A DNA stretch of 11,236 nucleotides. Source: Phycisphaerae bacterium (GTDB taxonomy: Bacteria; Planctomycetota; Phycisphaerae; UBA1845). Shown here one piece after another: positions 1 through 9,958 of this stretch. The position numbers were made by a program, and so were the translations under genes. Below the pieces are notes generated by a model. It saw only the letters and a program-made list of their open reading frames with translations, was not told where the DNA came from and made no database searches. Within the stretch, counting starts at the first letter, position 1; every line of letters begins with the position of its first letter. The DNA lies in assembly GCA_029260195.1 (NCBI GenBank), contig JAJDDS010000494.1, positions 1 through 11,236 on the forward strand. Direction: 5' to 3'.

Positions 1-52
1 GCTGTCCGCGTCGTCCATCGCGGATAAACTCGCGCTCCCGAAGGAACTCGTG

Positions 53-802
53 ATGGCCGCCATCGCCCAAGAGGCCGCCGCCGATCCGGAGTTGCAGGCC
101 ACGCGGAAAACGAACGACGTGTTTCTGTACCGTGGAGCTGCGACGCCTGCCCTGGAGAAAATGTCGATGAATGTCGTGGACCGTATCCGTAAGCTGTTCT
201 CCAGCGAGGGCGGCGAAGCCGAGAAAATCAACCTGCTCTCCGAACGTCGTGCCCAGCTCGCACAACGGCGCGATCGTCTGTATGGGGACATCGGCAAGCT
301 CGAATCCAAAGAGGCCGACCTGCTCAAAGAGGGGCGCGAAAACAAATCTCAGGTTGCCAGGCGGCGGTTGGCTGCTCAGTTGGGACAGCTTCGTAAGGAC
401 ATCGGCCGTCAAAACACGACGACCAACATGCTCAACCAGCAGATCAACATCATCAGCACGGACATTCACAATCTGACGCTGATCCAGCAAGGCAACCTCG
501 CCCAACTGCCAAGCACCGAGGAACTGACCGAAAACGCGGTGCAGGCCGAGGAGATGCTCGAGTCGTTGAAGGTCGACGCCGACATGGTCAGCAGTCTGGA
601 GACCGGACTGTCCGAAGTTTCCACCAGCGACGAAGAACTCGCCATCCTGAAGGAATTCGAGGAGTCCGACCCGCCGCGGAAGGTGGCGGAAGCGGATAAA
701 CCGACGCGCGTCGACTCCGTATTCGAACCGCCCGCGCCCGAACCGGAGTTACCCGACGCGCCCAACTCGTCTCGCGAGAAGGCGGACCCCGAAGCGATCT
801 AG
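53..802 (+). CDS. Snf7/ESCRT-III-like coiled-coil protein A. ATG at 53 has an AAGGAA RBS 6 nt upstream, but the frame is open to the window edge, so the gene may be 5'-truncated.
   Basis: By eye the translation aligns with yeast Snf7/CHMP4 helices a1-a4: KINLLSERRAQL vs HINLLSKKQSHL, then KEGRENKSQVARRRLAAQLGQLRKDIGRQNTTTNMLNQQINIIS vs KGNKVMAKNALKKKKTIEQLLSKVEGTMESMEQQLFSIES. Long heptad-repeat helices. The C-terminal third is strongly acidic and Pro-rich (EELAILKEFEESDPP...EPPAPEPELPDAP), giving the basic-N/acidic-C charge asymmetry typical of ESCRT-III. TAG stop at 800-802. Confidence 0.6.
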   Translation: MAAIAQEAAADPELQATRKTNDVFLYRGAATPALEKMSMNVVDRIRKLFSSEGGEAEKINLLSERRAQLAQRRDRLYGDIGKLESKEADLLKEGRENKSQVARRRLAAQLGQLRKDIGRQNTTTNMLNQQINIISTDIHNLTLIQQGNLAQLPSTEELTENAVQAEEMLESLKVDADMVSSLETGLSEVSTSDEELAILKEFEESDPPRKVAEADKPTRVDSVFEPPAPEPELPDAPNSSREKADPEAI

Positions 803-815
803 CGAGGAGTTATCC

Positions 816-1433
816 GTGCTGCAGTTGGTTGAATGGCTGACAAAACGTAAGAAGCCGTTGTCGCGGATGACGCGGTCCGAGTTGCGGCGCAAGGAGCTGA
901 TGCTCGAAAAGGACCGCACGCGGATGCTGAACCGGGTCAAGAAGCTGGCCGACGAGAAACAGGACATCTTCGCCAAGGGTGCTGATGAGAAAACGCCCGA
1001 AGTCCGGCGCGTGCTCGCTCAGGAGTTCGAGCTCAAGACCACCGAGCAGTTGATGGTCTCGCGGCAGCTCAACATACGAAGCAAGGAAGTGCTGACGGTC
1101 TCGCGGCTTCGGATGCTGCGCGAAAACGCCGATCGCGCGCAGGAGACTGGCGGTTCGCTCGGACTGATCTCCGAGGTCGATATCCTGCGGATGGGCAAGA
1201 TGATCGAGAACGACTCGATTCGTTCGGAAGCGTACTCGGAACGTCTCGACGAGATCCTCGGCGCCGGCGTCGAATCGGACCGCGAGGGCGTCGCGCTCTC
1301 CGAATCGGGACAGACCGTGATGAACATCTGGGACAGGATGGACGCCGGCGTCATCGCCGACAAGAACGAAGCCTTCGATGAGGCTGATCGGCAGGTCCGC
1401 GAGCGACAACGCGCCCCCGAGGAGCCGATATGA
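816..1433 (+). CDS. Snf7/ESCRT-III-like coiled-coil protein B
   Basis: GTG start at 816 with GAGGAG (804-809) 6 nt upstream. Basic N-terminus (KRKKPLSRMTRSELRRKELMLEKDRTRMLNRVKK), then long amphipathic helices with the spacing pattern of ESCRT-III a2/a3, then acidic C-terminal helices (DEILGAGVESDRE...DEADRQ). The stop TGA 1431-1433 overlaps the ATG of the next gene (ATGA). Confidence 0.55.
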   Translation: MLQLVEWLTKRKKPLSRMTRSELRRKELMLEKDRTRMLNRVKKLADEKQDIFAKGADEKTPEVRRVLAQEFELKTTEQLMVSRQLNIRSKEVLTVSRLRMLRENADRAQETGGSLGLISEVDILRMGKMIENDSIRSEAYSERLDEILGAGVESDREGVALSESGQTVMNIWDRMDAGVIADKNEAFDEADRQVRERQRAPEEPI

Positions 1434-1639
1434 TGAACACGTTTTCACGACCGCTGAGGCGCTCGATGGCCAATCGGCAGATCGCCGGTGTGTGCTCGGG
1501 GATTGCGGATTACTTGGGTCTGGACCCGACGGCGGTGCGCGTCGCGTATGTGTTGCTTTCCGTGTTCACCGTAGCCTTTCCGGGATTCTTGGTCTATTGC
1601 ATTCTGTGGTTGGTCATCCCGGAGCGTGAATATTACTAG
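1430..1639 (+). CDS. PspC-domain small membrane protein (phage-shock protein C family)
   Basis: RRSMANRQIAGVCSGIADYLGLDPTAVRVAYVLLSVFTVAFPGFLVYCILWLVIPE matches the PspC domain consensus (R..d.kiaGVcgGlA.yfg.dptlvR..fvll......g.l.Yl.lW...P) followed by one TM helix. The ATG overlaps the upstream stop (ATGA at 1430-1433), indicating translational coupling. Confidence 0.8.
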   Translation: MMNTFSRPLRRSMANRQIAGVCSGIADYLGLDPTAVRVAYVLLSVFTVAFPGFLVYCILWLVIPEREYY

Positions 1640-1672
1640 GCGTCCCCCGCGGGCGTTTGATGAGGCGAACGC

Positions 1673-2278
1673 ATGGGTCTTTTTAAGTCACCTGAAGAGC
1701 GGCGCATCGAGCGGGACATCAAGATCCGCCAGGGCATCCGCCGCATCGAAAAGAGCATCCGCGAGCAGGGCAAGTTCTCCGACGAGTTCATCCGCAACGC
1801 CCAGCACGCCAAGAAGATCGGCGACGACCAGCAGTACGCCTTCATCCGAAACTCGCTCAAGAAAACCGCAGCCGTCAAGAAAATCCTCGAACGCCAACTG
1901 CTCACAGTCAAGAACGCGCTGCTCATCAAGCGCCAAGCCGAAGCGTCCGCCGACTTCGCAAAGAGCATGGGACTCATGGCCAGCGAGATCGGACGCATGT
2001 TCGGCGAGACCGACCTGGTCAAGACCCAGGCTGACTGGGAGAAAGCCATGGTCCAGTCCCAGTCGAGGGAGGAGCGGATGGGCATGTTCCTGGACACCGT
2101 CGAGGACGTCGCCTCGCAGGACGTCGAGATGACCGCCTCCGACGCCATCGACGACGAGGAGATCGACCGCATGATCGAAGCCGAGACCGAGGCTGAGCAC
2201 CGCAAAGAACTCGACAAACTCGCCGGCCTCCGCGCCGAACTGAATTCCCTCAAACAGCAAGGAGAGAAGCAGAAATAG
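1673..2278 (+). CDS. Snf7/ESCRT-III-like coiled-coil protein C (CHMP1/Did2-like), with a C-terminal MIM1-like helix
   Basis: [9 protein letters not shown] N-terminus followed by a highly basic a1 ([25 protein letters not shown]). [44 protein letters not shown] resembles CHMP1 [90 protein letters not shown] resembles KVTKSMAGVVKSMDATLKTMNLEKISALMDKFEHQFETLDVQTQQMEDTM. Acidic stretch [19 protein letters not shown], then a terminal amphipathic [14 protein letters not shown]. RBS GAGG is 9 nt upstream of the ATG. Confidence 0.7.
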   Translation: [201 protein letters not shown]

Positions 2279-2307
2279 GGTCCACGATACGGTCACTGTG
2301 CGATAGC

Positions 2308-2322
2308 AGGGCACGCTGCCCT
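2308..2322 (+). terminator. Short hairpin (AGGGCA-cgc-TGCCCT) 30 nt after the stop of the third ESCRT-III-like gene; candidate weak terminator or RNA structure
   Basis: Perfect 6-bp inverted repeat with a 3-nt loop. There is no T-tract, so the terminator call is weak. Confidence 0.2.
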
Positions 2323-2344
2323 ACTCATGCCCTAATGCGACAAC

Positions 2345-3052
2345 ATGAAAGAAGAAATCCGGACAATCCGAGAACTTCTCGATCGAATAGAGTCGGGTCT
2401 CCACGTTGACGAAGAGCGGTCGTTTCAGGAGTCATTCGAGTTATTCGAGTTACCGGAGATTGTGACAAGCATTGTTGACCATCTTCAGCCTCTCCTGAGC
2501 CCATACGAATCCGCCGTGTTCTGGTACATGTTCCGCCATAGCGTTCTGGAGCATGGAGACGTGTATACTCGTGTCAGTGTCAATGGGCTGAGAAAGAGCG
2601 TCGTCAGGTCCGCTTCCGGGCAGTCGAAGAACCTGAGTCAAGAAACGGCTCGAAATACGCTGCTGGCTCTTGAAAAGAAAGGTGCAATCTCAAAGCAGGG
2701 AGACACGAACCGAGAGGGAACTCTCTACAGGGTGTATCTGCCGGAAGAAATCGACATCTGTCGCGAGCGAATGGCAGAGTATCAAGCAGAATCGCTCCCG
2801 ACGGTGGATCGCAAAAAAGAGCTCGATTACTACAACGTAAAGGAAAACAGGGCGAAGATCTTTGAACGAGATGCGTACAAGTGCCACTACTGCGGAAAAC
2901 AGCTCACAAGATTCAACGCGACGCTCGACCATCTGCAGCCGGTGACTCAGGGTGGCGATAATGCGTACGACAACCTCGTAACCGCCTGTTTGCACTGTAA
3001 TTCGCGTCGGGGATCGCGCCCCGTCATGGATTGGCTTGCGGAGAAGGAGTAG
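2345..3052 (+). CDS. HNH endonuclease with an N-terminal winged-helix domain; low-GC, apparently foreign gene
   Basis: C-terminus CHYCGKQLTRFNATLDHLQPVTQGGDNAYDNLVTACLHCNSRRGSRP is a classic HNH motif (Cys pair, catalytic His, Asn, second Cys-x2-Cys). The N-terminal region LSQETARNTLLALEKKGAISKQGDTNREGTLYRVYLP looks like a wHTH. Codon composition is visibly AT-richer (about 43% GC in the first 56 nt) than the ~65% surroundings. There is no SD upstream. Confidence 0.8.
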   Translation: MKEEIRTIRELLDRIESGLHVDEERSFQESFELFELPEIVTSIVDHLQPLLSPYESAVFWYMFRHSVLEHGDVYTRVSVNGLRKSVVRSASGQSKNLSQETARNTLLALEKKGAISKQGDTNREGTLYRVYLPEEIDICRERMAEYQAESLPTVDRKKELDYYNVKENRAKIFERDAYKCHYCGKQLTRFNATLDHLQPVTQGGDNAYDNLVTACLHCNSRRGSRPVMDWLAEKE

Positions 3053-3071
3053 GGCGGGCTTTGCCCGCCGG
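3053..3071. repeat. GC-rich hairpin repeat, copy 1 (GGCGGGC-ttt-GCCCGCC-GG), immediately after the HNH gene stop
   Basis: Perfect 7-bp stem with a 3-nt loop. The motif GCGGGC-TYY-GCCCGCCGG recurs at 3377-3395. Confidence 0.5.
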
Positions 3072-3132
3072 AACGCGTTGGCGGTTGTGCGATCGCCGAT
3101 GTCTCGAAATCGAACCGCAGTGTGAGAGAATC

Positions 3133-3375
3133 ATGCAAGCGAAGGAACTACAGTTACTCTCTCGGGCTCAGCCGTTCCGTCCGTTCGTCATTCGGTTGGC
3201 GGACGGGAGGGGCGTACCGGTGGATCATCCCGAGTTCATGGCTCTGGCGCCGACCGGGCGCAGCGCCGTAGTTTACGGAAAGGGCGGCGCGTTCGAAGTG
3301 ATCGACGTGCCCCTGGTGATAGGCCTGGAGGTACCCAACGGAAACTCCAGGATCCGTAGAAAGAAGAAGCGGTAG
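3133..3375 (+). CDS. hypothetical small protein (80 aa)
   Basis: ATG at 3133 preceded by GAGAGAA. The ORF ends with a basic tail (RIRRKKKR) at TAG 3373-3375. The longer ORF-track version (from 3031) would read through the HNH stop region and the hairpin, so the internal ATG is preferred. No recognisable family. Confidence 0.35.
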   Translation: MQAKELQLLSRAQPFRPFVIRLADGRGVPVDHPEFMALAPTGRSAVVYGKGGAFEVIDVPLVIGLEVPNGNSRIRRKKKR

Positions 3376-3376
3376 A

Positions 3377-3395
3377 GCGGGCTCCGCCCGCCGGG
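3377..3395. repeat. GC-rich hairpin repeat, copy 2 (GCGGGC-tcc-GCCCGC-CGGG), immediately after the small-ORF stop
   Basis: 6-bp perfect stem. The sequence is near-identical to copy 1, including the flanking CGG. Confidence 0.5.
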
Positions 3396-3405
3396 CAACG
3401 AAACA

Positions 3406-4056
3406 ATGCGAACGACGGTGAATCCAGGTGATATTCCGCAATGGCGCTCGTGGGAGGGGGTGCCGTTGCCTCCCCACGAGGAGATGCTCATGTTCCACAA
3501 GGACGCTGGTCCCGTTCCCGAGACGCTTCGCCGTCTCATGGCCATGCTGCAGAAGGAGAATATCGAATTCGTGGTCATCGGGGCCTTCGCCTTGGGCGCT
3601 CACCAGTATCGACGTGCAACCGAGGACGCGGACATTTGTTTGAGAGCGGCGGACATTGAACGCTTCAGGCGGGAGCTGGTCGGCACCGTCTATCAGCGCG
3701 TCGAAGGCCGCCAGCGCCGATTCTATGACCCTGACACGCAGGTTACGTTTGACCTGCTGATTTCCGGCGAATTGGCCGGCCACCGCGGGCGGAATCAGAC
3801 GATTCGTTTCCCCGACCCGTCAGAGGCGACCGTCGTGGGGGGACTGACGACCGTGTCGCTCGAGCGTCTGATTGAGCTGAAACTCGTCACGTGGCGAATC
3901 AGGGACATGGCCGACGTCATTGAGTTGATCCGCAGAAACAACTTGACCGAGGAATTCGCTGATCGGCTCCATCCGCTGGTCCGAACGCCGTATCTCGAGT
4001 GTTACGACCACAAGCTCGAAGAGGATCGACAGGATGAGGAGTATGGTGAGCACTGA
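3406..4056 (+). CDS. minimal nucleotidyltransferase-fold protein (Pol-beta superfamily; AbiEii/DUF1814-like). An alternative start at ATG 3490 has a GAGGAG RBS.
   Basis: VVIGAFALGAHQYRRATEDADICL fits the hG[GS]-x(10-13)-DxD nucleotidyltransferase signature and resembles the AbiEii GGtAL...R.S.DiD motif. A GAGGAG at 3478-3483 sits 6 nt before ATG 3490, which suggests the real N-terminus may be MFHKDAG.... Confidence 0.55.
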   Translation: MRTTVNPGDIPQWRSWEGVPLPPHEEMLMFHKDAGPVPETLRRLMAMLQKENIEFVVIGAFALGAHQYRRATEDADICLRAADIERFRRELVGTVYQRVEGRQRRFYDPDTQVTFDLLISGELAGHRGRNQTIRFPDPSEATVVGGLTTVSLERLIELKLVTWRIRDMADVIELIRRNNLTEEFADRLHPLVRTPYLECYDHKLEEDRQDEEYGEH

Positions 4057-4079
4057 TCGACCGCGCTCTGGAGCGACTC

Positions 4080-4132
4080 AAGGAGCGAGTATGAATTGTC
4101 CCGCCGGTACTTCGCGCCGGGGCGTGCGGTAG
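4080..4132 (+). promoter_or_regulatory. Perfect SD (AAGGAG, 4080-4085) plus ATG (4091) opening a 13-codon uORF (MNCPAGTSRRGVR) that stops at TAG 4130-4132, 1 nt before the GTG start of the DUF2723 gene
   Basis: Read directly: the spacing AAGGAG-5 nt-ATG is optimal. The uORF frame differs from the downstream gene. Possible leader peptide, reinitiation coupling, or a frameshifted true start. Confidence 0.3.
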
Positions 4133-4133
4133 G

Positions 4134-5741
4134 GTGGGCGCCGCCCGCGGGGTGGTGCCCGCATCGAAACAACGCGCCGTGAATCGGTTCGAGCACCATG
4201 ATGAAACAGGGTCCGAGACCGAGAGGAACCACCCATGGCCCAGGCTGACCCGCCGACAACGGACCTGCATCGCCGCGACCACGTTGCTGATCGCCGCCGT
4301 GGGGATCGCGCATCTGCCGCCCGGTGTGTGCTTCGCGGATTCGGGGGACCTGCAGGTGGCGTCGGCGACGTTGGGGATCGCCCATCCGCCGGGGTACGTC
4401 GGGTACGCCGCCGTCGGATGGTTGCTGTGCAAAGCGCTGTTTTTTCTGAAACCCGCGTATGTGGTGTCACTGGCGTGTCTGGCGTGCGTGGTACTGTCGC
4501 TTGCGATGTTGGCGGCATTGCTGGTACGCATGGGGTTGCACGTTCTCGGTGCGTGTTCGTTGTCGTTGCTGCTGGTCGCGCATCAGTCACCGCTGCAAAG
4601 CACGGTTTGGCAGAGCATGGGGTATCCAGAGGTCTACGCGCCGTCGTGGCTGCTGCTGATCGGCGCGACGCACTTGCTATTCAAATACGGTTGCGTGCAT
4701 CGGGCCGGCGCTTTGTGGACGGCGACGTTTCTTTTCGGATTTCTGGTGACGCAGCGTCCGCCGTCAGCTCTGTTCGCGCCTGGGTTTCTTCTGGCGTGGC
4801 TGTTGATCGAGCGACGACACCGCACGTCGCTGAAGCGGGCGGCGGGACTGTTCCTTGGAGGCCTGCTCTGGGCTTTGGTACCGGTGGTGCTCGTGATCGG
4901 GCTTGTCTGGACACTGGACGCGCCCGGAACGGACTACAATGGTATCGAGCAGTACGCCGAAGGCCACGGAGGTCTACCGAGTTATTCGGACGGCTATGCA
5001 GCCAAGCTACGCCGCGTGCAGTGGTTGATCACGGCGGAGCAGTTCGCCGAGTACGTGGCCACGGATCGGCATGTCGCCGCCAGCCGGCTGCGCTATATCC
5101 GGCGCGTGCTGCACCTATTCGATCGCGCGCCGTTTGCGTGCTTCCTCGTCTTGGTGTGTGCGGGCGTTTGGGTGAGTGCCCGGGGCGGCGGCGAACGAGC
5201 GGTCCTACCGTTGGGCTTGATGTTCGGGAACATCGCATTCTTGTGCATGTACCGCATCTACGGGCAGGCTGCCAATCTGTTGCCGACGGTCTTCGCCGCC
5301 GCGCTACCGGTCGGATCAGTTCTGGCGAAGTGGTTGCCGAATTCGATACGTGGCGGCCGAAGATGGTTCGCCGTAGCCATCTATACGTCGGCGTGCGTTT
5401 GGACCGTGTATCACGGCACAACGCGATACGCCTATGCCGGGCGCGCGGACGCGACGCAATTCCTGGCCGAGGTCGACCTCGCCGCGCTCCCGGGAGATTC
5501 CGTGATCTTTGCGGTCATGGCGAACTCGTGCCCCATCTGGTACGCCCGATCGGTCACTCTCGACCGCAAGGACATCGACATCGTCGTGGGGCCGACTCAT
5601 CGATGGGCCGAAGTCGCGGGACGTTACATCGATCGCCCGGTGTTCTACACGGAAGAGCGAGGAAAGGCGCCTGCGGGCTGGACGGCCGAACCGTCAGGGG
5701 TCCTCAGGCGGTTGACGCCCGATCAGAGACCCCGGGATTGA
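4134..5741 (+). CDS. DUF2723-family polytopic membrane protein (TMEM260-like; putative GT-C-fold glycosyl/mannosyltransferase)
   Basis: CFADSGDLQVASATLGIAHPPGYVGY matches the DUF2723/TMEM260 N-terminal signature (GDSGELxxAAxxLGVAHPPGYPLF). It is followed by more than 8 predicted TM helices. The start is uncertain (GTG 4134/4152/4155). The overlapping 4235..5770 ORF in another frame is Arg-rich high-GC noise. Confidence 0.8.
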   Translation: MGAARGVVPASKQRAVNRFEHHDETGSETERNHPWPRLTRRQRTCIAATTLLIAAVGIAHLPPGVCFADSGDLQVASATLGIAHPPGYVGYAAVGWLLCKALFFLKPAYVVSLACLACVVLSLAMLAALLVRMGLHVLGACSLSLLLVAHQSPLQSTVWQSMGYPEVYAPSWLLLIGATHLLFKYGCVHRAGALWTATFLFGFLVTQRPPSALFAPGFLLAWLLIERRHRTSLKRAAGLFLGGLLWALVPVVLVIGLVWTLDAPGTDYNGIEQYAEGHGGLPSYSDGYAAKLRRVQWLITAEQFAEYVATDRHVAASRLRYIRRVLHLFDRAPFACFLVLVCAGVWVSARGGGERAVLPLGLMFGNIAFLCMYRIYGQAANLLPTVFAAALPVGSVLAKWLPNSIRGGRRWFAVAIYTSACVWTVYHGTTRYAYAGRADATQFLAEVDLAALPGDSVIFAVMANSCPIWYARSVTLDRKDIDIVVGPTHRWAEVAGRYIDRPVFYTEERGKAPAGWTAEPSGVLRRLTPDQRPRD

Positions 5742-5766
5742 ACGGGCACGGCTCTGTGAGTCACCA

Positions 5767-6885
5767 ATGAGCGATTCGTCCATGACATTTGATCGGTACA
5801 AGTCCAAGGGGATCGCCGCCTACAAGAAGGGTGACTACCAGACGGCGAGGGCGTATCTGGTCGACGCGGCTGAGTGCATGGTCGAGATGGCGGAAAAAAC
5901 CGGATCACCCGACACACGACGGCAGCGCGAGGAACTCGCCACCGAACTTATCGAATTAGCAAGGGACTGCGACAATCGCCAGGGATCGCCGCGCACCAAC
6001 CGTCGTCCCCAACGTGAAAAAGAGGATGACGGCGCTGCGGATGCCTCAGACTGGGTCGTCAAGGAGCAATCTAATATCAGCTTCAACGACATCGCCGGGC
6101 TCGAAGACGTGAAGGAGGACATCCGCCTCAAAATGATCTACCCCGCTTCGCATCCGGAGTTGGCAAAACGATACGGCATCAACCTCGGTGGCGGGCTACT
6201 GCTCTACGGACCGCCAGGTACGGGCAAGACCATGATGGCCAAAGCCATCGCCCACGAACTGAACGCGACCTTCTTCGTCATAAGCCCGGCGCAGATTCTC
6301 AGCAAGTGGGTCGGCGAGGCGGAACAGAACGTGCGAAAGCTCTTCGACGCAGCCAAATCCGAACCGCAGGCCATCATCTTCATCGACGAAGTCGAAGCCC
6401 TCGTCCCCAAGCGTCAGGATGGTTCCTCGACTGTGATGCAGCGTGTCGTTCCGCAGATTCTGCAGGAATTGGAAGGCTTTGATCGGAAGAGCGACCGCGC
6501 GTTGCTCTTCGTCGGCGCGACGAACAAGCCCTGGGCGCTCGATGAAGCGATGCTCCGCCCCGGTCGCCTGGACACGAAAGCCTATGTCGGCCTGCCCGAC
6601 GCGCCGGCGCGATACCGCTTGCTGGAGATCTACTTCGGCGATCGGCCCCTGGACGAGGACGTCGATTTTGGAATGCTGTGCGACCGGCTGCAAGGATACA
6701 GTGGCGCCGATATCAAGGGCATCGCCGCCCAGTCGGCTTCGATACCGTTCACCGAAGCCATCAGTGGCCGCGATCCGCGTCCGATCAACATGATCGACAT
6801 CAGCAACGTGATTGACGCGACGCCACCGTCGGTCGGTAAGATATTGTTGGGACGGTTCGAATCATTCGCCGAGACCGGATCGTGA
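5767..6885 (+). CDS. Vps4-like AAA+ ATPase with an N-terminal MIT-like domain (meiotic clade: Vps4/katanin/spastin)
   Basis: The N-terminal ~75 aa (FDRYKSKGIAAYKKGDYQTARAYLVDAAECMVEMAEK...ELIELARDC) has MIT three-helix character. The AAA core has Walker A GPPGTGKT (6208-6231), Walker B IIFIDEVEAL, sensor-1 GATNKP, and the arginine-finger region LDEAMLRPGRLD. The segment IAGLEDVKEDIRLKMIYPASHPELAKRYGINLGGGLLLYGPPGTGKTMMAKAIAHELNATFFVISPAQILSKWVGEAEQNVRKLFDAAK is collinear with Vps4. Confidence 0.85.
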   Translation: MSDSSMTFDRYKSKGIAAYKKGDYQTARAYLVDAAECMVEMAEKTGSPDTRRQREELATELIELARDCDNRQGSPRTNRRPQREKEDDGAADASDWVVKEQSNISFNDIAGLEDVKEDIRLKMIYPASHPELAKRYGINLGGGLLLYGPPGTGKTMMAKAIAHELNATFFVISPAQILSKWVGEAEQNVRKLFDAAKSEPQAIIFIDEVEALVPKRQDGSSTVMQRVVPQILQELEGFDRKSDRALLFVGATNKPWALDEAMLRPGRLDTKAYVGLPDAPARYRLLEIYFGDRPLDEDVDFGMLCDRLQGYSGADIKGIAAQSASIPFTEAISGRDPRPINMIDISNVIDATPPSVGKILLGRFESFAETGS

Positions 6886-6886
6886 T

Positions 6887-6972
6887 GATGTAGCGCCACC
6901 CCATGTGGGTGGCGAGAACAGAGACCGATGTCCGCCCCGAACGGCGCCGCCCACAAGGGGTGGCGCTACATC
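6887..6972. repeat. 27-bp inverted repeat (arms 6888-6914 and 6945-6971, 25/27 complementary) with a 30-nt spacer. Each arm also contains its own 8-bp hairpin (CGCCACCC-catgt-GGGTGGCG).
   Basis: Arm1 is atgtagcgccaccccatgtgggtggcg. The reverse complement of arm2 is atgtagcgccaccccttgtgggcggcg. The repeat begins 2 nt after the Vps4-like stop codon. Confidence 0.6.
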
Positions 6973-6976
6973 GGGT

Positions 6977-7005
6977 GCCATGCCTAAGCGAAGCGCGGGC
7001 ATGGC
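6977..7005. repeat. Second intergenic hairpin (GCCATGCC-13 nt-GGCATGGC) just upstream of the 7026 start
   Basis: Perfect 8-bp inverted repeat read directly. Together with 6887-6972 it makes the 140-bp intergenic region highly structured. Confidence 0.45.
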
Positions 7006-7025
7006 GGATGTAACGAGATAATCTC

Positions 7026-8786
7026 ATGAGCGCCGAACAACCGGATCCCAAGACATTCTTCGAGTCGCCAGATGCGATCGCGATTACCGTCGACGCGGAC
7101 GCCCTGTTCGGTTTCCTCCCACGCGCCCACGAATTGCCCGCCGACCAAGCGGCGCTCGTTACCCGCGCACACGGTGACCGCATCGCTTACGCTCCGGGAT
7201 CGGAGGTCGAGCGCGGAAGCGCTGAAGCCGTGCTCCTGGTTCGCACGACACCGAACACGATTACGTTCGACGCGTTGACCGTCACCTCGCTCGACCGATA
7301 CCAATGTCCCGCGTCAGCCAAGATCCGCGTTTCGGTTGTCCCTGAATCTTCGGAGTTGACTTCGTTTCAAAGGAGCTTACTCGGCGGTCACGGCGCGGTC
7401 GGTCTGGCGGCGCTGCACGACTATATCGAACCCCACGTCATTCGCGCTTTGTCCGCCGTCGCCGACGGCCGCGGAGTCGAGGTGCTGATCGATCCCGCAA
7501 ACGGCGAGGCCTTTTCGACGGAAGTCGCGGACGCGCTCAAGAGGGCTACCTTCGCGGCCGGGCTGCGAATCGACGGATCCATCGACGTCCGATTCGATTC
7601 GCCGGTGTACCGACAGGTCCGCGCGTCGCGTGCCGCAGCCGAACGCCGCGAAGCGGAATTCGACGCCCAGCAACGTATCGCCAAAGCCGTCGAAACAGCC
7701 CAGCGCGAGCGCGCGAAACACCTGGCTGATTTGCTCGAACAGCTATCCCGCAACGCCGATCGCTCGCCGAACCACGACCTGGCCGACCTCCTCGGGACGT
7801 TTCCCGAGACGGAGCGCGGCGAACTGTACGCCGCGCTCTTCGGCGCTGACGACACCCGCGCCGTCACCCGCTGGATCGTCGCCGGCTCTGGGCGCGAACT
7901 GCTCTTCTTCGCGCCCGACCTGCTCGCGACCCCGGCCCGAACCGTTCACATTCCGGACACCATCGGACCCGTGCGATCCGTGCGGTTCCATGCTGACGCC
8001 GACGGCCGATCGCGATTGATCGTCGGCGCCTCTCGAGGCCTGCACGACTTCGCCGTTGACGGTGACGCCCAATTCGCGACCCACACCATCGACTCCGACG
8101 AGGACGTGCGCGGCGGTGTCAATTCAGCCGCCATCGCCGGCGACAACTTGTTTGCCTCACACTCGGAATTGGGCGTGTTGTATTGGAATCGTGGCGACGA
8201 CGCGCCTGCACGCGCGATTCTCGCGGACCGGACGCGCGGTGCCAGCGCCGTGCGCTGCTCCCGCTTTTTCAACGGAAGGGTCTACTTCTCGATCGACGAA
8301 CAGATTCTCTCCGTCCCCGCCGACGCCCCGAACAGTGAGCCCGAGGTTTTCACGGGAAATCACGCCCTCATTACCGCTCTCTGCCCTACGATCGCGGGTC
8401 TCTACGCCGGGAACGCCGACGGGCAGATTCTGCACTGGCCTGAAGGACAATCCGACGAACCCGAACTCCTCCACTCCGGTCGCCAACGCTCGGCCGAATC
8501 GGTTGCGGTGCTCGACTTCGGCGGGCTAAGCCGTCTCTTCTACACCGACACGTCCGTGGCTGTCTTCGCGCGCGTCCTGGGCGACACCTTCACTTGCCGC
8601 TACGAAGCCGCCGGACAAACCCTGCGCCGCGTCGAAGTTGCCCCCGATTTGATCGTTGCGACCAACGAGATTCGCGACCGTCTCATCTTCTGGCGCCCCA
8701 GCCGGCCCGACACGCCGCTCGCCGTGGTGGCGGTTTCACCCCTCACCGGCCACTCCATCCAGGACGTCTGTCTCATCCCCGCATAG
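7026..8786 (+). CDS. hypothetical 586-aa protein: possible SPFH/band-7-like N-terminal domain, coiled coil, and C-terminal beta-propeller-like repeats
   Basis: The long ORF sits on the same strand directly after the Vps4-like gene. Residues ~60-200 (ITFDALTVTSLDRYQCPASAKIRVSVVPE ... GLRIDGSIDVRFDSP) followed by an E/A/R/Q-rich helix (RASRAAAERREAEFDAQQRIAKAVETAQRERAKHLADLLEQ) resemble the SPFH core plus the trailing helix of stomatin/flotillin/HflK. The C-terminal half has repeated Gly/aromatic blade-like segments (GVLYWNRGDD, DGQILHWPEG, DRLIFWRPS). The domain calls are made by eye. Confidence 0.6.
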   Translation: MSAEQPDPKTFFESPDAIAITVDADALFGFLPRAHELPADQAALVTRAHGDRIAYAPGSEVERGSAEAVLLVRTTPNTITFDALTVTSLDRYQCPASAKIRVSVVPESSELTSFQRSLLGGHGAVGLAALHDYIEPHVIRALSAVADGRGVEVLIDPANGEAFSTEVADALKRATFAAGLRIDGSIDVRFDSPVYRQVRASRAAAERREAEFDAQQRIAKAVETAQRERAKHLADLLEQLSRNADRSPNHDLADLLGTFPETERGELYAALFGADDTRAVTRWIVAGSGRELLFFAPDLLATPARTVHIPDTIGPVRSVRFHADADGRSRLIVGASRGLHDFAVDGDAQFATHTIDSDEDVRGGVNSAAIAGDNLFASHSELGVLYWNRGDDAPARAILADRTRGASAVRCSRFFNGRVYFSIDEQILSVPADAPNSEPEVFTGNHALITALCPTIAGLYAGNADGQILHWPEGQSDEPELLHSGRQRSAESVAVLDFGGLSRLFYTDTSVAVFARVLGDTFTCRYEAAGQTLRRVEVAPDLIVATNEIRDRLIFWRPSRPDTPLAVVAVSPLTGHSIQDVCLIPA

Positions 8787-8884: not shown

Positions 8885-9958
8885 CTACGGAAGTTCAACG
8901 ACGATGTTCGCGTAGTATGTGTTGTCGAGACGATCGAATCCGGGCTGCGGACTGGAGTTGTATTCGTTGCGCATCCCGACCTTGAGCTTGAATCGATCGT
9001 CTTTGAATGGGATCAACAGGGCTGTGTCCAGATCGAGGCGGTAGTCGTTGAACTCCTCAAAATCTGGACTGTATGTCGTCGAGTGCGTGAACCTCGCCCA
9101 TGGCACGACGTCCAGGCGATAATCCAGCCCGAGGTCAATCACTGCGCTGTCGTTTGTCCGGTCGCCCTGATATGCCTCATGTCGGTAACCGGCGCCGAAC
9201 CGGTTCTTCAGCTCGTGATGCGGTTTCTTGAGCCAGTAGTACGTCCCGCCGCTCGCTGCCGTGGCGCGAAGATCGAGATCCTCGAATTCGTCGAATTCCA
9301 ACTCCATCCGAGCATACCATGACCAGTGATCGTCGATGGTGTATTCGTAGTTCATACCGCCGCGGTACTCGTTGGTTGTTCGGCTGTCGTTTTGCTCGCT
9401 GTACTCCGCCGCGAGATAGAAATGAAGCATATCGACGGCCGTCTTACGCCTGAGATCGAATCGGCCCCGCGCGTCGAGCGTATCCGTGTTGCCCTCTTTG
9501 CGCGATCCCCCGGCCTCAAACGTCGATTTCCACTCCGGCGCATAAGCCCTTTTCGTTTCGGCTGCCTCGGCTTTGACGGCGGCGAGTTCGGGGCTTTCGC
9601 TGCCGGGCGGCCACATCGACTTGATCTGTCCCGCCGACACATCGAGCGCTCCGAGCGCCGTGCGCATCGTCGATGTTCGCTGCTCGTCCCCGGCCGCCAT
9701 CGTCCCGACCAAGCGGTCACCGCTCTCGAACTCAACGGTCAGCGGTTCGTCGAATTCAAATGCGACGATCTGGCTGCTGTCGATCTCGACATGACCGAAT
9801 AGCGCGCTGGCGATCTTGAGCTTGCCACCAGCCATCTGTTCGATCTTGCCAACGAGCTTGCTGCCGTCCGACGTGAATACGGTGTCTCCGAAGCACACCG
9901 TCGGGATACTCGGCAACACAAGAAGGACAACAAGAGCGACCGGTCGCGCCACGTTCAT
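8885..9958 (-). CDS. DUF481-family (YdiY-like) outer-membrane beta-barrel protein with a signal peptide and an N-terminal extension
   Basis: Starting at ATG 9956-9958 gives MNVARPVALVVLLVLPSIPTVCFG (signal peptide). The C-terminal ~230 aa has the alternating Tyr/Asp/Gly-rich beta-strand pattern and the GNTDT...DNTYY motifs typical of DUF481. The longer ORF-track version (to 10033) adds an unlikely Arg-rich leader. Confidence 0.6.
   Translation of the reverse strand: MNVARPVALVVLLVLPSIPTVCFGDTVFTSDGSKLVGKIEQMAGGKLKIASALFGHVEIDSSQIVAFEFDEPLTVEFESGDRLVGTMAAGDEQRTSTMRTALGALDVSAGQIKSMWPPGSESPELAAVKAEAAETKRAYAPEWKSTFEAGGSRKEGNTDTLDARGRFDLRRKTAVDMLHFYLAAEYSEQNDSRTTNEYRGGMNYEYTIDDHWSWYARMELEFDEFEDLDLRATAASGGTYYWLKKPHHELKNRFGAGYRHEAYQGDRTNDSAVIDLGLDYRLDVVPWARFTHSTTYSPDFEEFNDYRLDLDTALLIPFKDDRFKLKVGMRNEYNSSPQPGFDRLDNTYYANIVVELP

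What the first reader, a model, noticed from the sequence alone, without database searches (positions are those of the whole stretch)
2279..4133. Low-GC HNH endonuclease, small ORF and minimal NTase islet splitting the ESCRT-like cluster
The wHTH-HNH gene is visibly AT-richer than everything around it and lacks an SD. It is followed by a small basic-tailed ORF and an AbiEii-like nucleotidyltransferase. The block is punctuated by two copies of the same GC-rich hairpin. The likeliest reading is a horizontally acquired selfish or defence islet (homing-endonuclease-like, or a toxin-antitoxin or Abi-type module) inserted between the ESCRT-III-like genes and the DUF2723/Vps4-like genes. Such insertions mark tolerated break points in an operon and may themselves be a novel HNH plus NTase pairing.
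Basis: partly seen in the sequence, partly recalled or inferred. Interest (0 to 1): 0.55.

Follow-up and report, generated by a model that had tools for sequence, protein, structure and literature searches.

The report
Mixed accessory genes in an operon gap
The 1.8 kb block is not one imported module but three unrelated genes that fill a naturally variable gap inside a conserved membrane-remodelling operon: a foreign nuclease of a kind that travels as an integron cassette, a small lineage-specific gene, and a long-resident toxin-like nucleotidyltransferase, separated by ordinary repeat hairpins.

Summary
The HNH gene (2345-3052) is AT-richer than everything around it (GC 0.52 vs 0.62, z -4.5) and has no Shine-Dalgarno. 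An 80-aa basic-tailed ORF and an AbiEii/MenT-like nucleotidyltransferase follow. The GC-rich hairpin occurs three times, not twice.

The "single acquired HNH+NTase islet" reading is only partly right. In 59 Phycisphaerae relatives the gap between the last coiled-coil gene (g4) and the Vps4-like ATPase ranges from 8 to 3690 nt, so it is a real tolerated break point.

- **NTase:** it sits at this position in 15 of 80 species, often alone, and co-diverges with the ATPase. It is an old resident.
- **Small ORF:** it recurs directly after g4 in relatives.
- **HNH:** only this gene is foreign. It is absent from all 80 species and present in one other relative. Its family is 52-69% identical across many phyla and has no conserved neighbour. 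In 20 of 70 loci it carries integron-cassette boundaries, with integron integrases beside it in three loci. The window copy has no attC.
- **Hairpins:** they are GTAG-tagged REP elements whose TAG supplies the stop codons. They are not target-site duplications.

All parts are members of known kinds. Interest is modest.

The parts
1673..2278 (+). g4, the last of three coiled-coil genes. It forms the left border of the variable gap.
   Evidence: 70-88% identical in 80 Phycisphaerae species. It has no Pfam or PDB sequence hit, and only 2 of 32 family members give a faint Snf7 match.
2276..2344 (.). g4-HNH spacer. It holds a degenerate REP head (aTAG GGTCCAC) at the g4 stop codon and a small hairpin at 2308-2322.
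   Evidence: L002 and L170 have an intact GTAG GGTCCGC tgt GCGGACC at the same place. The hairpin folds at -10.9 kcal/mol, which is not distinct from shuffles.
2345..3052 (+). Solo winged-helix plus HNH nuclease gene. It is low in GC, lacks an SD, and belongs to an integron-cassette family.
3049..3069 (+). GTAG-tagged REP copy 1 (GTAG GGCGGGC ttt GCCCGCC). Its TAG is the HNH stop codon.
3133..3375 (+). Conserved 80-aa protein with a basic tail; function unknown.
   Evidence: It has 20 homologues. These lie directly after g4 in L168-L171 and just before the AAA gene in L020.
3372..3392 (+). GTAG-tagged REP copy 2 (GTAG AGCGGGC tcc GCCCGCC). Its TAG is the stop codon of the small ORF.
3406..4056 (+). 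Divergent AbiEii/MenT-like minimal nucleotidyltransferase. There is an alternative start at 3490 with a strong SD.
4129..4149 (+). Degenerate third REP copy (GTAG GGTGGGC gcc GCCCGCG). It overlaps the listed GTG start of the next ORF.
4134..5741 (+). Multi-pass membrane protein, weakly TMEM260/DUF2723-like. It is an occasional resident of the same gap.
   Evidence: Pfam E 1e-3, below the cut-off. Homologues lie in the gap of L016, L031, L032, L046, L073 and L171.
5767..6885 (+). Vps4/CdvC-like AAA ATPase. It forms the right border of the variable gap.
   Evidence: PF00004 E 2e-40. NCBIfam CdvC gives 232 bits over the full length, below the cut-off of 650. It is conserved in 59 relatives.

Best explanation
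Positions 2279-4133 are the occupied state of a variable gap between two genes of a conserved Phycisphaerae operon. The operon order is three coiled-coil genes, PspC, g4, the gap, a Vps4-like AAA ATPase, then an SPFH protein. The gap's contents have three separate histories.

(a) The HNH gene is a stranded copy of a tight, cross-phylum family of solo winged-helix plus HNH nucleases. Elsewhere this family is carried as a promoterless integron gene cassette. Here it has no attC. It keeps the family's AT-rich composition and its lack of an SD. It is presumably transcribed by read-through of the operon (inferred). The winged helix would bind DNA and the zinc-bound HNH site would nick or cut it; the catalytic D195-H196, N210, N219 and the four cysteines are intact. 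The role is probably defence or self-maintenance (inferred).

(b) The 80-aa gene is a lineage-restricted small gene that habitually follows g4. Its function is unknown.

(c) The NTase is a divergent AbiEii/MenT-type enzyme with its active site intact: G59, T72, D74, D76, D116 and a K159-L-V-T-W-R164 motif. It has been inherited with the operon and lost many times. By analogy with MenT it would add nucleotides to tRNA 3' ends and slow translation (inferred, not tested).

(d) The hairpins are GTAG-tagged REP elements, a dispersed repeat class. Their TAG provides the stop codons of HNH and of the small ORF.
For: Gap variability:
- Across 59 relatives the gap is 8-3690 nt; 25 of them are under 300 nt.
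- Cargo families in the gap are the NTase (13 loci), HEPN (4), the membrane protein (4) and many singletons. These include Mrr_cat, MNT, Imm_superinfect, DUF3800 and DUF4238.

HNH:
- It is absent from all 80 species loci and present in L002, in the same gap. The window and L002 copies are sisters in a neighbour-joining tree.
- The best 120 of 931 hits are full-length and 57-69% identical. They come from Planctomycetota, Bacteroidota, Verrucomicrobiota, Chloroflexota, Marinimicrobia, Cloacimonetes and Sumerlaeota.
- No neighbour is conserved across 85 loci.
- The gene's GC lies below its flanks by 6.7 points on average and by up to 19 points.
- A nearly identical 0.8 kb unit sits in three unrelated backgrounds. 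Its boundaries are GTTAAGAG on one side and GCGTTA on the other.
- In 20 of 70 loci, against 1.5% of controls, a GTTRRRY motif upstream of the start is complementary to an RYYYAAC motif at the stop.
- The 60-116 nt downstream of the gene fold like attC sites, and multi-cassette arrays are present.
- Integron integrases lie adjacent in L096, L115 and L158 (TIGR02249, 379-483 bits, cut-off 265).
- Only one full-length hit was found in 2.9 million viral contigs.

NTase:
- It lies 7-1050 nt after g4 in 15 species, and also in L168, L171 and L177.
- It co-diverges with the AAA gene.
- 24 of 45 members hit PF08843, and MenT1 is the best structural and profile match.
- T72 aligns with the phospho-acceptor T39 of MenT1, and D74 with D41 (PMC11375011).

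REPs:
- GTAG is the commonest 4-mer immediately 5' of 7-bp GC-rich hairpins in 1.36 Mb of relatives' DNA (47 of 914, 29-fold enrichment).
- The same GGCGGGC-type unit occurs in L015, L028, L030, L061 and L074.
- REPs are 4.3-fold denser in the gaps than elsewhere.
- Di Nocera et al. 2013 (PMC3733652) describe GTAG REPs, including in Planctomycetes, whose tag often supplies a TAG stop codon.
Against: - The window and L002 HNH copies show no attC or core-site motif. An integron origin for this particular copy is therefore inferred from its family, not seen directly.
- How the gene entered the gap is unknown.
- 50 of 70 family loci also lack the strict cassette signature. The test needs a perfect complement of at least 7 nt, so this count is a lower bound.
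- The sister relation of the window and L002 HNH copies is weak: L002's raw nearest neighbours are other sequences, at 71% against 69%.
- No activity was tested for any of the three proteins.
- Most gap cargo in relatives has no annotation, so the phrase 'defence-flavoured' rests on a minority of genes.
- The higher REP density in the gaps partly reflects the larger share of intergenic DNA there.
Confidence: 0.75

Rival explanations
1. The whole 1.8 kb block is one horizontally acquired selfish or defence islet, a functional HNH + small ORF + NTase module bounded by hairpin repeats.
For: The three genes are adjacent and on the same strand. HNH has a deviant GC. All three belong to families with a defence or toxin-antitoxin flavour. 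The repeats punctuate the genes.
Against: Only HNH is compositionally deviant. The NTase and the small ORF occur at the same site in many relatives without HNH. HNH occurs in 84 other loci without either of them. The hairpins are dispersed REPs found elsewhere in this window (6890-6969) and in other species. There is no significant target-site duplication.
Confidence: 0.05
2. The small ORF and the NTase form a MenA1/MenT1-like toxin-antitoxin pair. The roughly 9 kDa upstream protein neutralises the nucleotidyltransferase toxin, for example by inducing auto-phosphorylation of T72. HNH is an unrelated neighbour.
For: MenT1 is the best structural and profile hit. MenA1 is a 7.4 kDa protein encoded upstream of MenT1 (PMC11375011, PMC10435456). 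The same small-ORF-then-NTase order is seen in the window and in L168. T72, D74 and K159 are conserved.
Against: The NTase stands directly after g4, without the small ORF, in 15 species. The small ORF occurs without the NTase in L020 and beside other genes in L069, L027 and L172. In L171 the two genes are separated by a 515-aa membrane protein. The small protein has no family hit and no structure was predicted for it.
Confidence: 0.2
3. The NTase, and perhaps the small protein, is a working accessory of the membrane-remodelling operon rather than a passenger. It could, for example, nucleotidylate a component or a small molecule under envelope stress.
For: Its position right after g4 is conserved in 15 of 80 species. 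That position holds even where the AAA gene does not follow it (L008, L012, L056; L177 from another source). It co-diverges with the AAA gene. Structural hits also include small-molecule NTases: ANT(2'')-Ia, LnuA and JHP933.
Against: It is absent from about 80% of species that keep the operon. Homologues also stand alone between housekeeping genes (L174-L176). Co-divergence is equally expected for a neutral passenger.
Confidence: 0.15
4. HNH is a free-standing homing endonuclease that copied itself into this site by cutting an empty allele.
For: It is a solo HNH gene with a DNA-binding domain, foreign composition and a patchy distribution.
Against: Its insertion sites in 85 loci share no homologous target gene. 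It lies in no intron or intein. The family's mobile boundaries are integron core sites next to IntI. It is strongly conserved over its full length, unlike decaying homing endonuclease genes.
Confidence: 0.07

Closest known systems
Integron gene cassettes that encode single-gene nucleases or defence proteins (sedentary chromosomal integrons; bioRxiv 10.1101/2024.07.02.601686 and 10.1101/2024.07.02.601719)
   Same: Family members are promoterless single ORFs. They are bounded by GTTRRRY on one side and RYYYAAC plus an attC site on the other. They sit in arrays next to IntI and are found in unrelated hosts.
   Different: The window copy has no attC or core sites and sits inside an operon, not in an array. 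No defence activity is known for this family.
Gme HNH nicking endonuclease (PDB 4h9d) and the Cas9/IscB-type HNH domain
   Same: These are the best structural and profile matches to residues of about 160-235. The CxxC...CxxC zinc site and the DH...N...N motif are conserved.
   Different: This protein carries an N-terminal MarR/BlaI-like winged helix and has no RuvC domain and no guide RNA. The NCBIfam IscB score is far below the cut-off (46 against 175 bits).
MenT1/MenA1 (Rv0078A/B) nucleotidyltransferase toxin-antitoxin of M. tuberculosis
   Same: It has the same minimal NTase fold. The active-site T, DxD and K are conserved. A small gene lies upstream in the window and in L168.
   Different: TM-score is only about 0.5 and identity 20-23%. 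Most family members have no small upstream partner. The gene is embedded in a membrane-remodelling operon.
AbiEii/AbiEi type IV toxin-antitoxin (PF08843, DUF1814)
   Same: 24 of 45 family members hit PF08843, and the C-terminal K...R...D..D motif is present.
   Different: No AbiEi-type (winged helix, COG5340) antitoxin gene lies beside it in any locus. The protein is shorter (185-225 aa). The window protein itself is below the Pfam threshold.
GTAG-tagged REP elements and REPINs (Di Nocera et al. 2013, PMC3733652; Nunvar et al. 2010, PMC2817692)
   Same: There is an unpaired GTAG tag followed by a GC-rich palindrome of about 17 nt. The elements are extragenic and dispersed, occur in several sequence families, and their TAG is used as a stop codon. 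An inverted pair lies at 6890-6969.
   Different: Genome-wide copy number and a RAYT gene could not be checked, because only 11 kb of this genome is available.
Core-gene-flanked hot spots for accessory and defence genes
   Same: Conserved flanks (g4 and AAA) enclose highly variable cargo. This includes a type IV REase-like Mrr protein, MNT-HEPN, a HicB-like protein, HNH and an AbiEii-like NTase.
   Different: The hot spot lies between two same-strand genes of one apparent operon. Most of the cargo is unannotated.

Membership tests
HNH endonuclease (PF01844) | A beta-beta-alpha-metal motif with the catalytic His and Asn residues | tested here: met
   PF01844 E 1e-11, 45 bits (cut-off 21.4). D195, H196, N210, N219, C180, C183 and C215 are invariant in 44 sequences. 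The structure matches 4h9d and Cas9 HNH domains.
Integron gene cassette | An attC site (RYYYAAC ... GTTRRRY, 57-141 nt, imperfect hairpin) at the 3' end of the ORF and a core site at the 5' boundary | tested here: not met
   The window copy and the L002 copy have neither. The feature is met for 20 of 70 other family loci.
Integron gene cassette | Location in an array beside an integron integrase | tested here: not met
   The window has no integrase and no array. Family members in L096, L115 and L158 lie beside TIGR02249 integrases, and arrays are present in L116 and L159.
Homing endonuclease gene | Residence in an intron or intein, or a recurrent homologous target site | tested here: not met
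   The 85 loci share no target gene and the gene is never interrupted or nested.
AbiEii / MenT (DUF1814) NTase toxin | An NTase core (hG[GS], DxD, a third acidic residue) plus the C-terminal K...R...D motif | tested here: met
   G59, D74, D76, D116, K159, R164, D167 and D170 are conserved. 24 of 45 members hit PF08843. MenT1 is the best hit by fold and by profile. The window protein alone is below threshold.
AbiEii / MenT (DUF1814) NTase toxin | A cognate antitoxin gene immediately upstream (AbiEi/MenA3 type or MenA1 type) | tested here: not met
   No AbiEi-like gene is present. The small ORF is upstream only in the window and L168. Fifteen species have the NTase directly after g4.
AbiEii / MenT (DUF1814) NTase toxin | Toxicity, and nucleotide transfer to tRNA | not testable with these tools
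   This needs expression and tRNA assays.
GTAG-tagged REP | An unpaired GTAG followed by a short GC-rich palindrome, extragenic | tested here: met
   Three copies are in the block and two more at 6890-6969.
GTAG-tagged REP | A dispersed multi-copy family | tested here: met
   The same unit occurs in L015, L028, L030, L061 and L074 (seven copies in L074). GTAG is 29-fold enriched 5' of hairpins in 1.36 Mb. The copy number in this genome itself could not be counted.
GTAG-tagged REP | A RAYT (TnpA-REP) gene in the genome | not testable with these tools
   Only 11 kb of the genome is available. A faint Y1_Tnp gene lies next to a small-ORF homologue in L172.
Inserted genomic islet with target-site duplication | Direct repeats at both ends of the inserted segment | tested here: inconclusive
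   The longest repeat is 8 nt (TGTGCGAT, at 2297 and 3086). The chance expectation is about 0.15, and both copies lie in degenerate REP arms.
ESCRT-III / PspA superfamily (flanking genes g1, g2, g4) | Sequence or structural similarity to Snf7 or PspA | tested here: inconclusive
   There is no Pfam or NCBIfam hit. The g4 profile finds nothing in the PDB at E up to 10. Two of 32 members give Snf7 at E 0.089. No structure was predicted.

The most novel reading that the evidence does not exclude
The g4-AAA gap is not just a tolerated break point. It would be a dedicated cargo bay in which toxin or defence-type genes (AbiEii/MenT-like NTase, MNT-HEPN, HNH, Mrr) are placed under the control of a stress-induced ESCRT-III/Vps4-like membrane-repair operon. 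On this reading the antitoxin-less MenT-like NTase is a working, co-regulated brake on translation during envelope damage or phage attack.
Probability: 0.15. Interest if true: 0.6.

Novelty: new member of a known kind. Interest (0 to 1): 0.35.

Why it matters
First, the case shows that adjacency plus one compositional outlier can wrongly suggest a module. Comparison with 80 related species separates one recent foreign gene from two old residents.

Second, it identifies a compact, cross-phylum winged-helix plus HNH family as integron-cassette cargo. That makes it a candidate single-gene defence or addiction nuclease worth testing. I found no description of this family as integron cargo in two full-text searches.

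Third, it documents a hypervariable slot inside an otherwise conserved bacterial operon encoding a Vps4-like ATPase, PspC and an SPFH protein. That slot repeatedly houses nucleotidyltransferase and HEPN-type genes, which may hint at a link between membrane-stress systems and toxin or defence genes.

Tried and rejected
- **Target-site duplications.** Only an 8-nt repeat was found, with a chance expectation of about 0.15, and it lies inside REP remnants.
- **attC scan of the window and L002.** Hits fell only inside coding regions and were taken as false positives. A first, stricter attC scan failed even on the positive controls and was discarded.
- **Rfam.** No RNA family was found in the window.
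- **Sigma-70 promoter scan of 1500-6000.** None was found. The terminator-like sites do not coincide with the REPs.
- **Phage origin of HNH.** One full-length hit in 2.9 million viral contigs, so this was rejected.
- **Conserved partner of HNH.** None was found in 85 loci other than the integron integrase, which is present in four.
- **Terminal inverted repeats around HNH.** None was consistent across loci.
- **PADLOC on ten cargo proteins from the gap.** Only the Mrr protein of L007 matched.
- **Hairpin thermodynamics.** The hairpins are not distinct from shuffles.
- **g4 as ESCRT-III.** Sequence methods were inconclusive.
- **Small ORF.** No hit in Pfam, NCBIfam, PADLOC or PHROGs.
Full report
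**What is in the window.** All relevant genes are on the + strand.
- Three coiled-coil proteins: g1 at 50-802, g2 at 816-1433, and g4 at 1673-2278.
- A PspC-domain protein at 1430-1639, between g2 and g4 (PF04024, E 8e-24).
- The block in question, 2279-4133.
- A multi-pass membrane protein at 4134-5741, weakly TMEM260/DUF2723-like (E 1e-3, below the cut-off).
- A Vps4/CdvC-like AAA ATPase at 5767-6885.
- A 586-aa protein with an SPFH/Band 7 domain at 7026-8786.

**Checking the observation.**
- *Composition.* The HNH gene (2345-3052) has GC 0.521. The 182 other 708-nt windows average 0.617 (sd 0.021, minimum 0.572), giving z = -4.5. Its GC3 is 0.614 against 0.754 for the other genes (z = -2.7). 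About half of the deficit comes from amino-acid composition. The remainder of the block, 3053-4133, is normal at 0.610.
- *Ribosome-binding site.* The HNH start has the weakest anti-SD pairing of all starts.
- *HNH domain.* It is clear (PF01844, E 1e-11). The AF2 model shows an N-terminal MarR/MecI/BlaI-like winged helix and a C-terminal HNH resembling the Gme nickase and Cas9 HNH domains.
- *Small ORF (3133-3375).* It is a real, conserved family of 76-80 aa proteins with a basic tail.
- *NTase (3406-4056).* On its own it gets only weak hits. However, 24 of 45 relatives hit PF08843 AbiEii. Its confident model (pLDDT 96) is closest to the MenT1 toxin, followed by ANT(2'')-Ia, JHP933 and LnuA.
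- *Hairpin.* It occurs three times, not twice, and each copy starts with GTAG.

**The gap is variable.** I searched one genome per species with the g4 protein and recovered 80 Phycisphaerae loci. An exact-protein look-up added L002. The order g1-g2-PspC-g4-...-AAA-SPFH is conserved. In the 59 loci where both borders are visible, the g4-to-AAA distance runs from 8 to 3690 nt. Twenty-five loci have no gene in the gap and 34 have cargo. Clustering the cargo gave the following families:
- The NTase family, in 13 loci.
- HEPN, in 4 loci, usually together with an MNT partner.
- The membrane-protein family, in 4 loci.
- Another family of about 500 aa, in 3 loci.
- Many singletons. These include an Mrr_cat restriction-like nuclease (in L007, directly upstream of the NTase), Imm_superinfect, DUF3800, DUF4238, a histidine phosphatase and a 923-aa F5/8-type-C protein.

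**The NTase and the small ORF are residents, not imports.**
- The NTase lies 7-1050 nt after g4 in 15 of the 80 species. In L018, L037, L041, L042, L055, L061 and L078 it is the only gene in the gap.
- Its pairwise identities track those of the AAA gene (Mantel r 0.38, p 0.0008). This is comparable with AAA against g4, so it has mostly been inherited with the operon and lost repeatedly.
- L031 has g4-NTase-membrane protein-AAA, which is the window's order minus HNH and the small ORF.
- The small ORF sits directly after g4 in L168, L169, L170 and L171, with two tandem paralogues in L171. It lies just before the AAA gene in L020.
- The NTase and the small ORF are adjacent only in the window and L168. 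The NTase also stands alone between housekeeping genes in L174-L176.
- Both genes have the host's composition.

**The HNH gene is the foreign element.**
- *Distribution among relatives.* It is absent from all 80 species loci at any coverage. It is present in L002, in the same gap, but with different neighbours: a HicB-like gene upstream and MNT-HEPN downstream. There too it has low GC (0.528, against 0.57-0.64 for the core operon genes). The two copies are sisters in a neighbour-joining tree, though only weakly.
- *Wider family.* The best 120 of 931 hits are full-length proteins, 57-69% identical, from at least seven phyla. At 50% clustering only 36 clusters reach E 1e-30. Only one full-length copy was found in 2.9 million viral contigs.
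- *Context.* In 84 further loci no other gene of this window is nearby and no neighbour is conserved. The gene is on average 6.7 GC points below its flanks, and up to 19 points below in GC-rich hosts.
- *Mobility.* L114, L115 and L129 carry a nearly identical 0.8 kb unit in three unrelated backgrounds (flank GC 0.51, 0.65 and 0.48). The sharp boundaries are GTTAAGAG 21 nt before the start and GCGTTA 72 nt after the stop. In 20 of 70 loci, against 1.5% of mismatched controls, a GTTRRRY motif 14-41 nt upstream is perfectly complementary over 7-12 nt to an RYYYAAC motif overlapping the stop codon. The 60-116 nt that follow fold as imperfect hairpins ending in GTTRRRY. These are the core site, inverse core site and attC of integron gene cassettes.
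- *Integron setting.* L116 and L159 are multi-cassette arrays. The only recurrent neighbour, in four loci, is a tyrosine recombinase. In three of these it scores 379-483 bits on the integron-integrase model TIGR02249 (cut-off 265). In L158 the HNH gene is the first cassette beside a divergent intI.

The family's solo state, missing SD, AT-rich bias and cross-phylum spread are therefore explained. The window and L002 copies have no attC or core site. Their cassette ancestry is inferred, and their route into the gap is unknown.

**The hairpins are REP elements.**
- *Form.* Each copy is GTAG followed by a 7-bp GC-rich stem and a 3-nt loop. The TAG of the tag is the stop codon of HNH and of the small ORF.
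- *Other species.* The same unit occurs in L015, L028, L030, L061 and L074 (seven copies in L074). Sister families (GGTCCGC, CGCCACCCC, GGCAGGTC) sit at gene ends in L002, L168 and L170, again donating TAG stops.
- *Enrichment.* In 1.36 Mb of Phycisphaerae DNA, GTAG is the commonest 4-mer immediately 5' of perfect 7-bp GC-rich hairpins (47 of 914, 29-fold enrichment). GTAG REPs are 4.3 times denser in the gaps than elsewhere (P 4e-10). Part of this reflects the larger share of intergenic DNA there.
- *Literature.* Di Nocera et al. 2013 (PMC3733652) define GTAG-tagged REPs, report them in Planctomycetes, and note that the tag often supplies a TAG stop codon.
- *Not insertion scars.* The best direct repeat around HNH is 8 nt (TGTGCGAT), about what chance gives, and it lies in degenerate REP arms.

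**How the parts most likely work.** Everything in this paragraph is inferred unless a call is cited.
- *HNH.* The winged helix binds DNA and the zinc-stabilised HNH site, whose catalytic residues are intact, nicks or cuts it. As former cassette cargo it has no promoter of its own. No sigma-70-like site lies in 1500-6000, so it would be read through from the operon and poorly translated. A defence or self-maintenance role is plausible, given that integron cassettes often encode single-gene anti-phage nucleases (bioRxiv 10.1101/2024.07.02.601686).
- *NTase.* It keeps G59, T72, D74, D76, D116 and the K159...R164...D167...D170 motif. T72 and D74 align with T39 and D41 of MenT1. In MenT1, T39 is the auto-phosphorylation site that switches the toxin off (PMC11375011). 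It may therefore be a MenT-like tRNA nucleotidyltransferase. However, it lacks a consistent antitoxin partner, so a non-toxin role, such as acting on a small molecule or a protein, remains open.
- *Small ORF.* The function is unknown. Its being a MenA1-like antitoxin is a lead only.

**Comparison with known systems, and novelty.** Every component belongs to a known kind: an HNH nuclease carried as integron cargo, an AbiEii/MenT-type NTase, and GTAG REPs. There are three new points. This particular HNH family is integron-borne; two full-text searches found no description of it as integron cargo. The NTase subfamily is an antitoxin-less resident of a membrane-remodelling operon. The operon contains an internal variable slot. 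I rate the finding a new member of a known kind with modest interest (0.35).

The most novel reading not excluded is that the slot is a functional cargo bay coupling toxin or defence genes to a membrane-stress operon (probability about 0.15).

Noticed in passing
window 6885-6975: Two GTAG-tagged palindromes (GTAG CGCCACCCC ...) in inverted orientation, 30 nt apart, lie just after the AAA gene. Together they fold at -61.4 kcal/mol (z -9.1). This is a REPIN/BIME-like structure. L002 has one copy of the same REP family at the equivalent place (9326-9350).
   Followed up: partly
window 50-8786, and L002, L006-L085, L168-L171, L177: An operon is conserved in at least 80 Phycisphaerae species. It encodes three coiled-coil proteins, PspC, a Vps4/CdvC-like AAA ATPase and a 586-aa SPFH protein. 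A Ser/Thr kinase lies upstream in L002, L170, L171 and L177, and a GGDEF gene in L002 and L171. Makarova et al. [quoted passage not shown] Ravi et al. 2024 (PMC11237479) note Vps4-like ATPases transferred to bacteria, with a TPR + 6TM partner. Whether g1, g2 and g4 are ESCRT-III-like could not be shown by sequence, so structure prediction would be worthwhile.
   Followed up: partly
window 3490: An internal ATG (Met29 of the NTase) has a strong GAGGAG ribosome-binding site, whereas the upstream ATG at 3406 has none. NCBI annotates the 188-aa form. Even so, the first 28 residues are conserved in homologues and are confidently modelled. Two protein isoforms are possible.
   Followed up: partly
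window 4129-4155: The listed GTG start (4134) of the membrane protein lies inside the degenerate third REP. In-frame GTG codons at 4152 and 4155, just after the hairpin, may be the true start.
   Followed up: no
L114, L115, L129 (HNH at about 8001-8705 in each): A nearly identical 0.8 kb HNH cassette sits in three contigs whose flanking GC is 0.51, 0.65 and 0.48. This is direct evidence of recent transfer of the cassette between unrelated genomes.
   Followed up: yes
L012 7216, L030 17727, L033 1401, L035 10657, L051 8914, L058 15334, L073 2832, L074 6252: A second palindromic repeat family (consensus about GAGCCGCGGGCTTCAGCCCGCGCGGA) lacks a GTAG tag and is shared by many Phycisphaerae species. 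In L012 and L035 it lies directly after g4.
   Followed up: no
L172 4918-6884 and L173: The most distant homologue of the small ORF (46% identity) lies outside the operon, in a run of small genes. Its neighbours are a PIN-domain pair and a 165-aa ORF with a faint Y1 transposase (possible RAYT) hit.
   Followed up: no
L177 3781-7591: In this 4.8 Mb Phycisphaerae genome, other junctions of the operon also carry cargo. An NTP_transf_2 gene lies between g1 and g2, and MNT-HEPN lies between g2 and g4. The NTase still follows g4, but no AAA gene follows it.
   Followed up: no
L005 10001-11126 and L007 5557-7092: Small Mrr_cat nucleases turn up next to both focal families. One lies directly downstream of the HNH homologue in a Verrucomicrobiota genome. 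Another lies directly upstream of the NTase in L007.
   Followed up: no
L086 10001-10687: This is the single full-length HNH homologue found in a contig classed as viral (IMG/VR). The gene's GC is 0.30 against 0.38 in its flanks. I did not check whether the contig is really a phage or a misclassified integron region.
   Followed up: no
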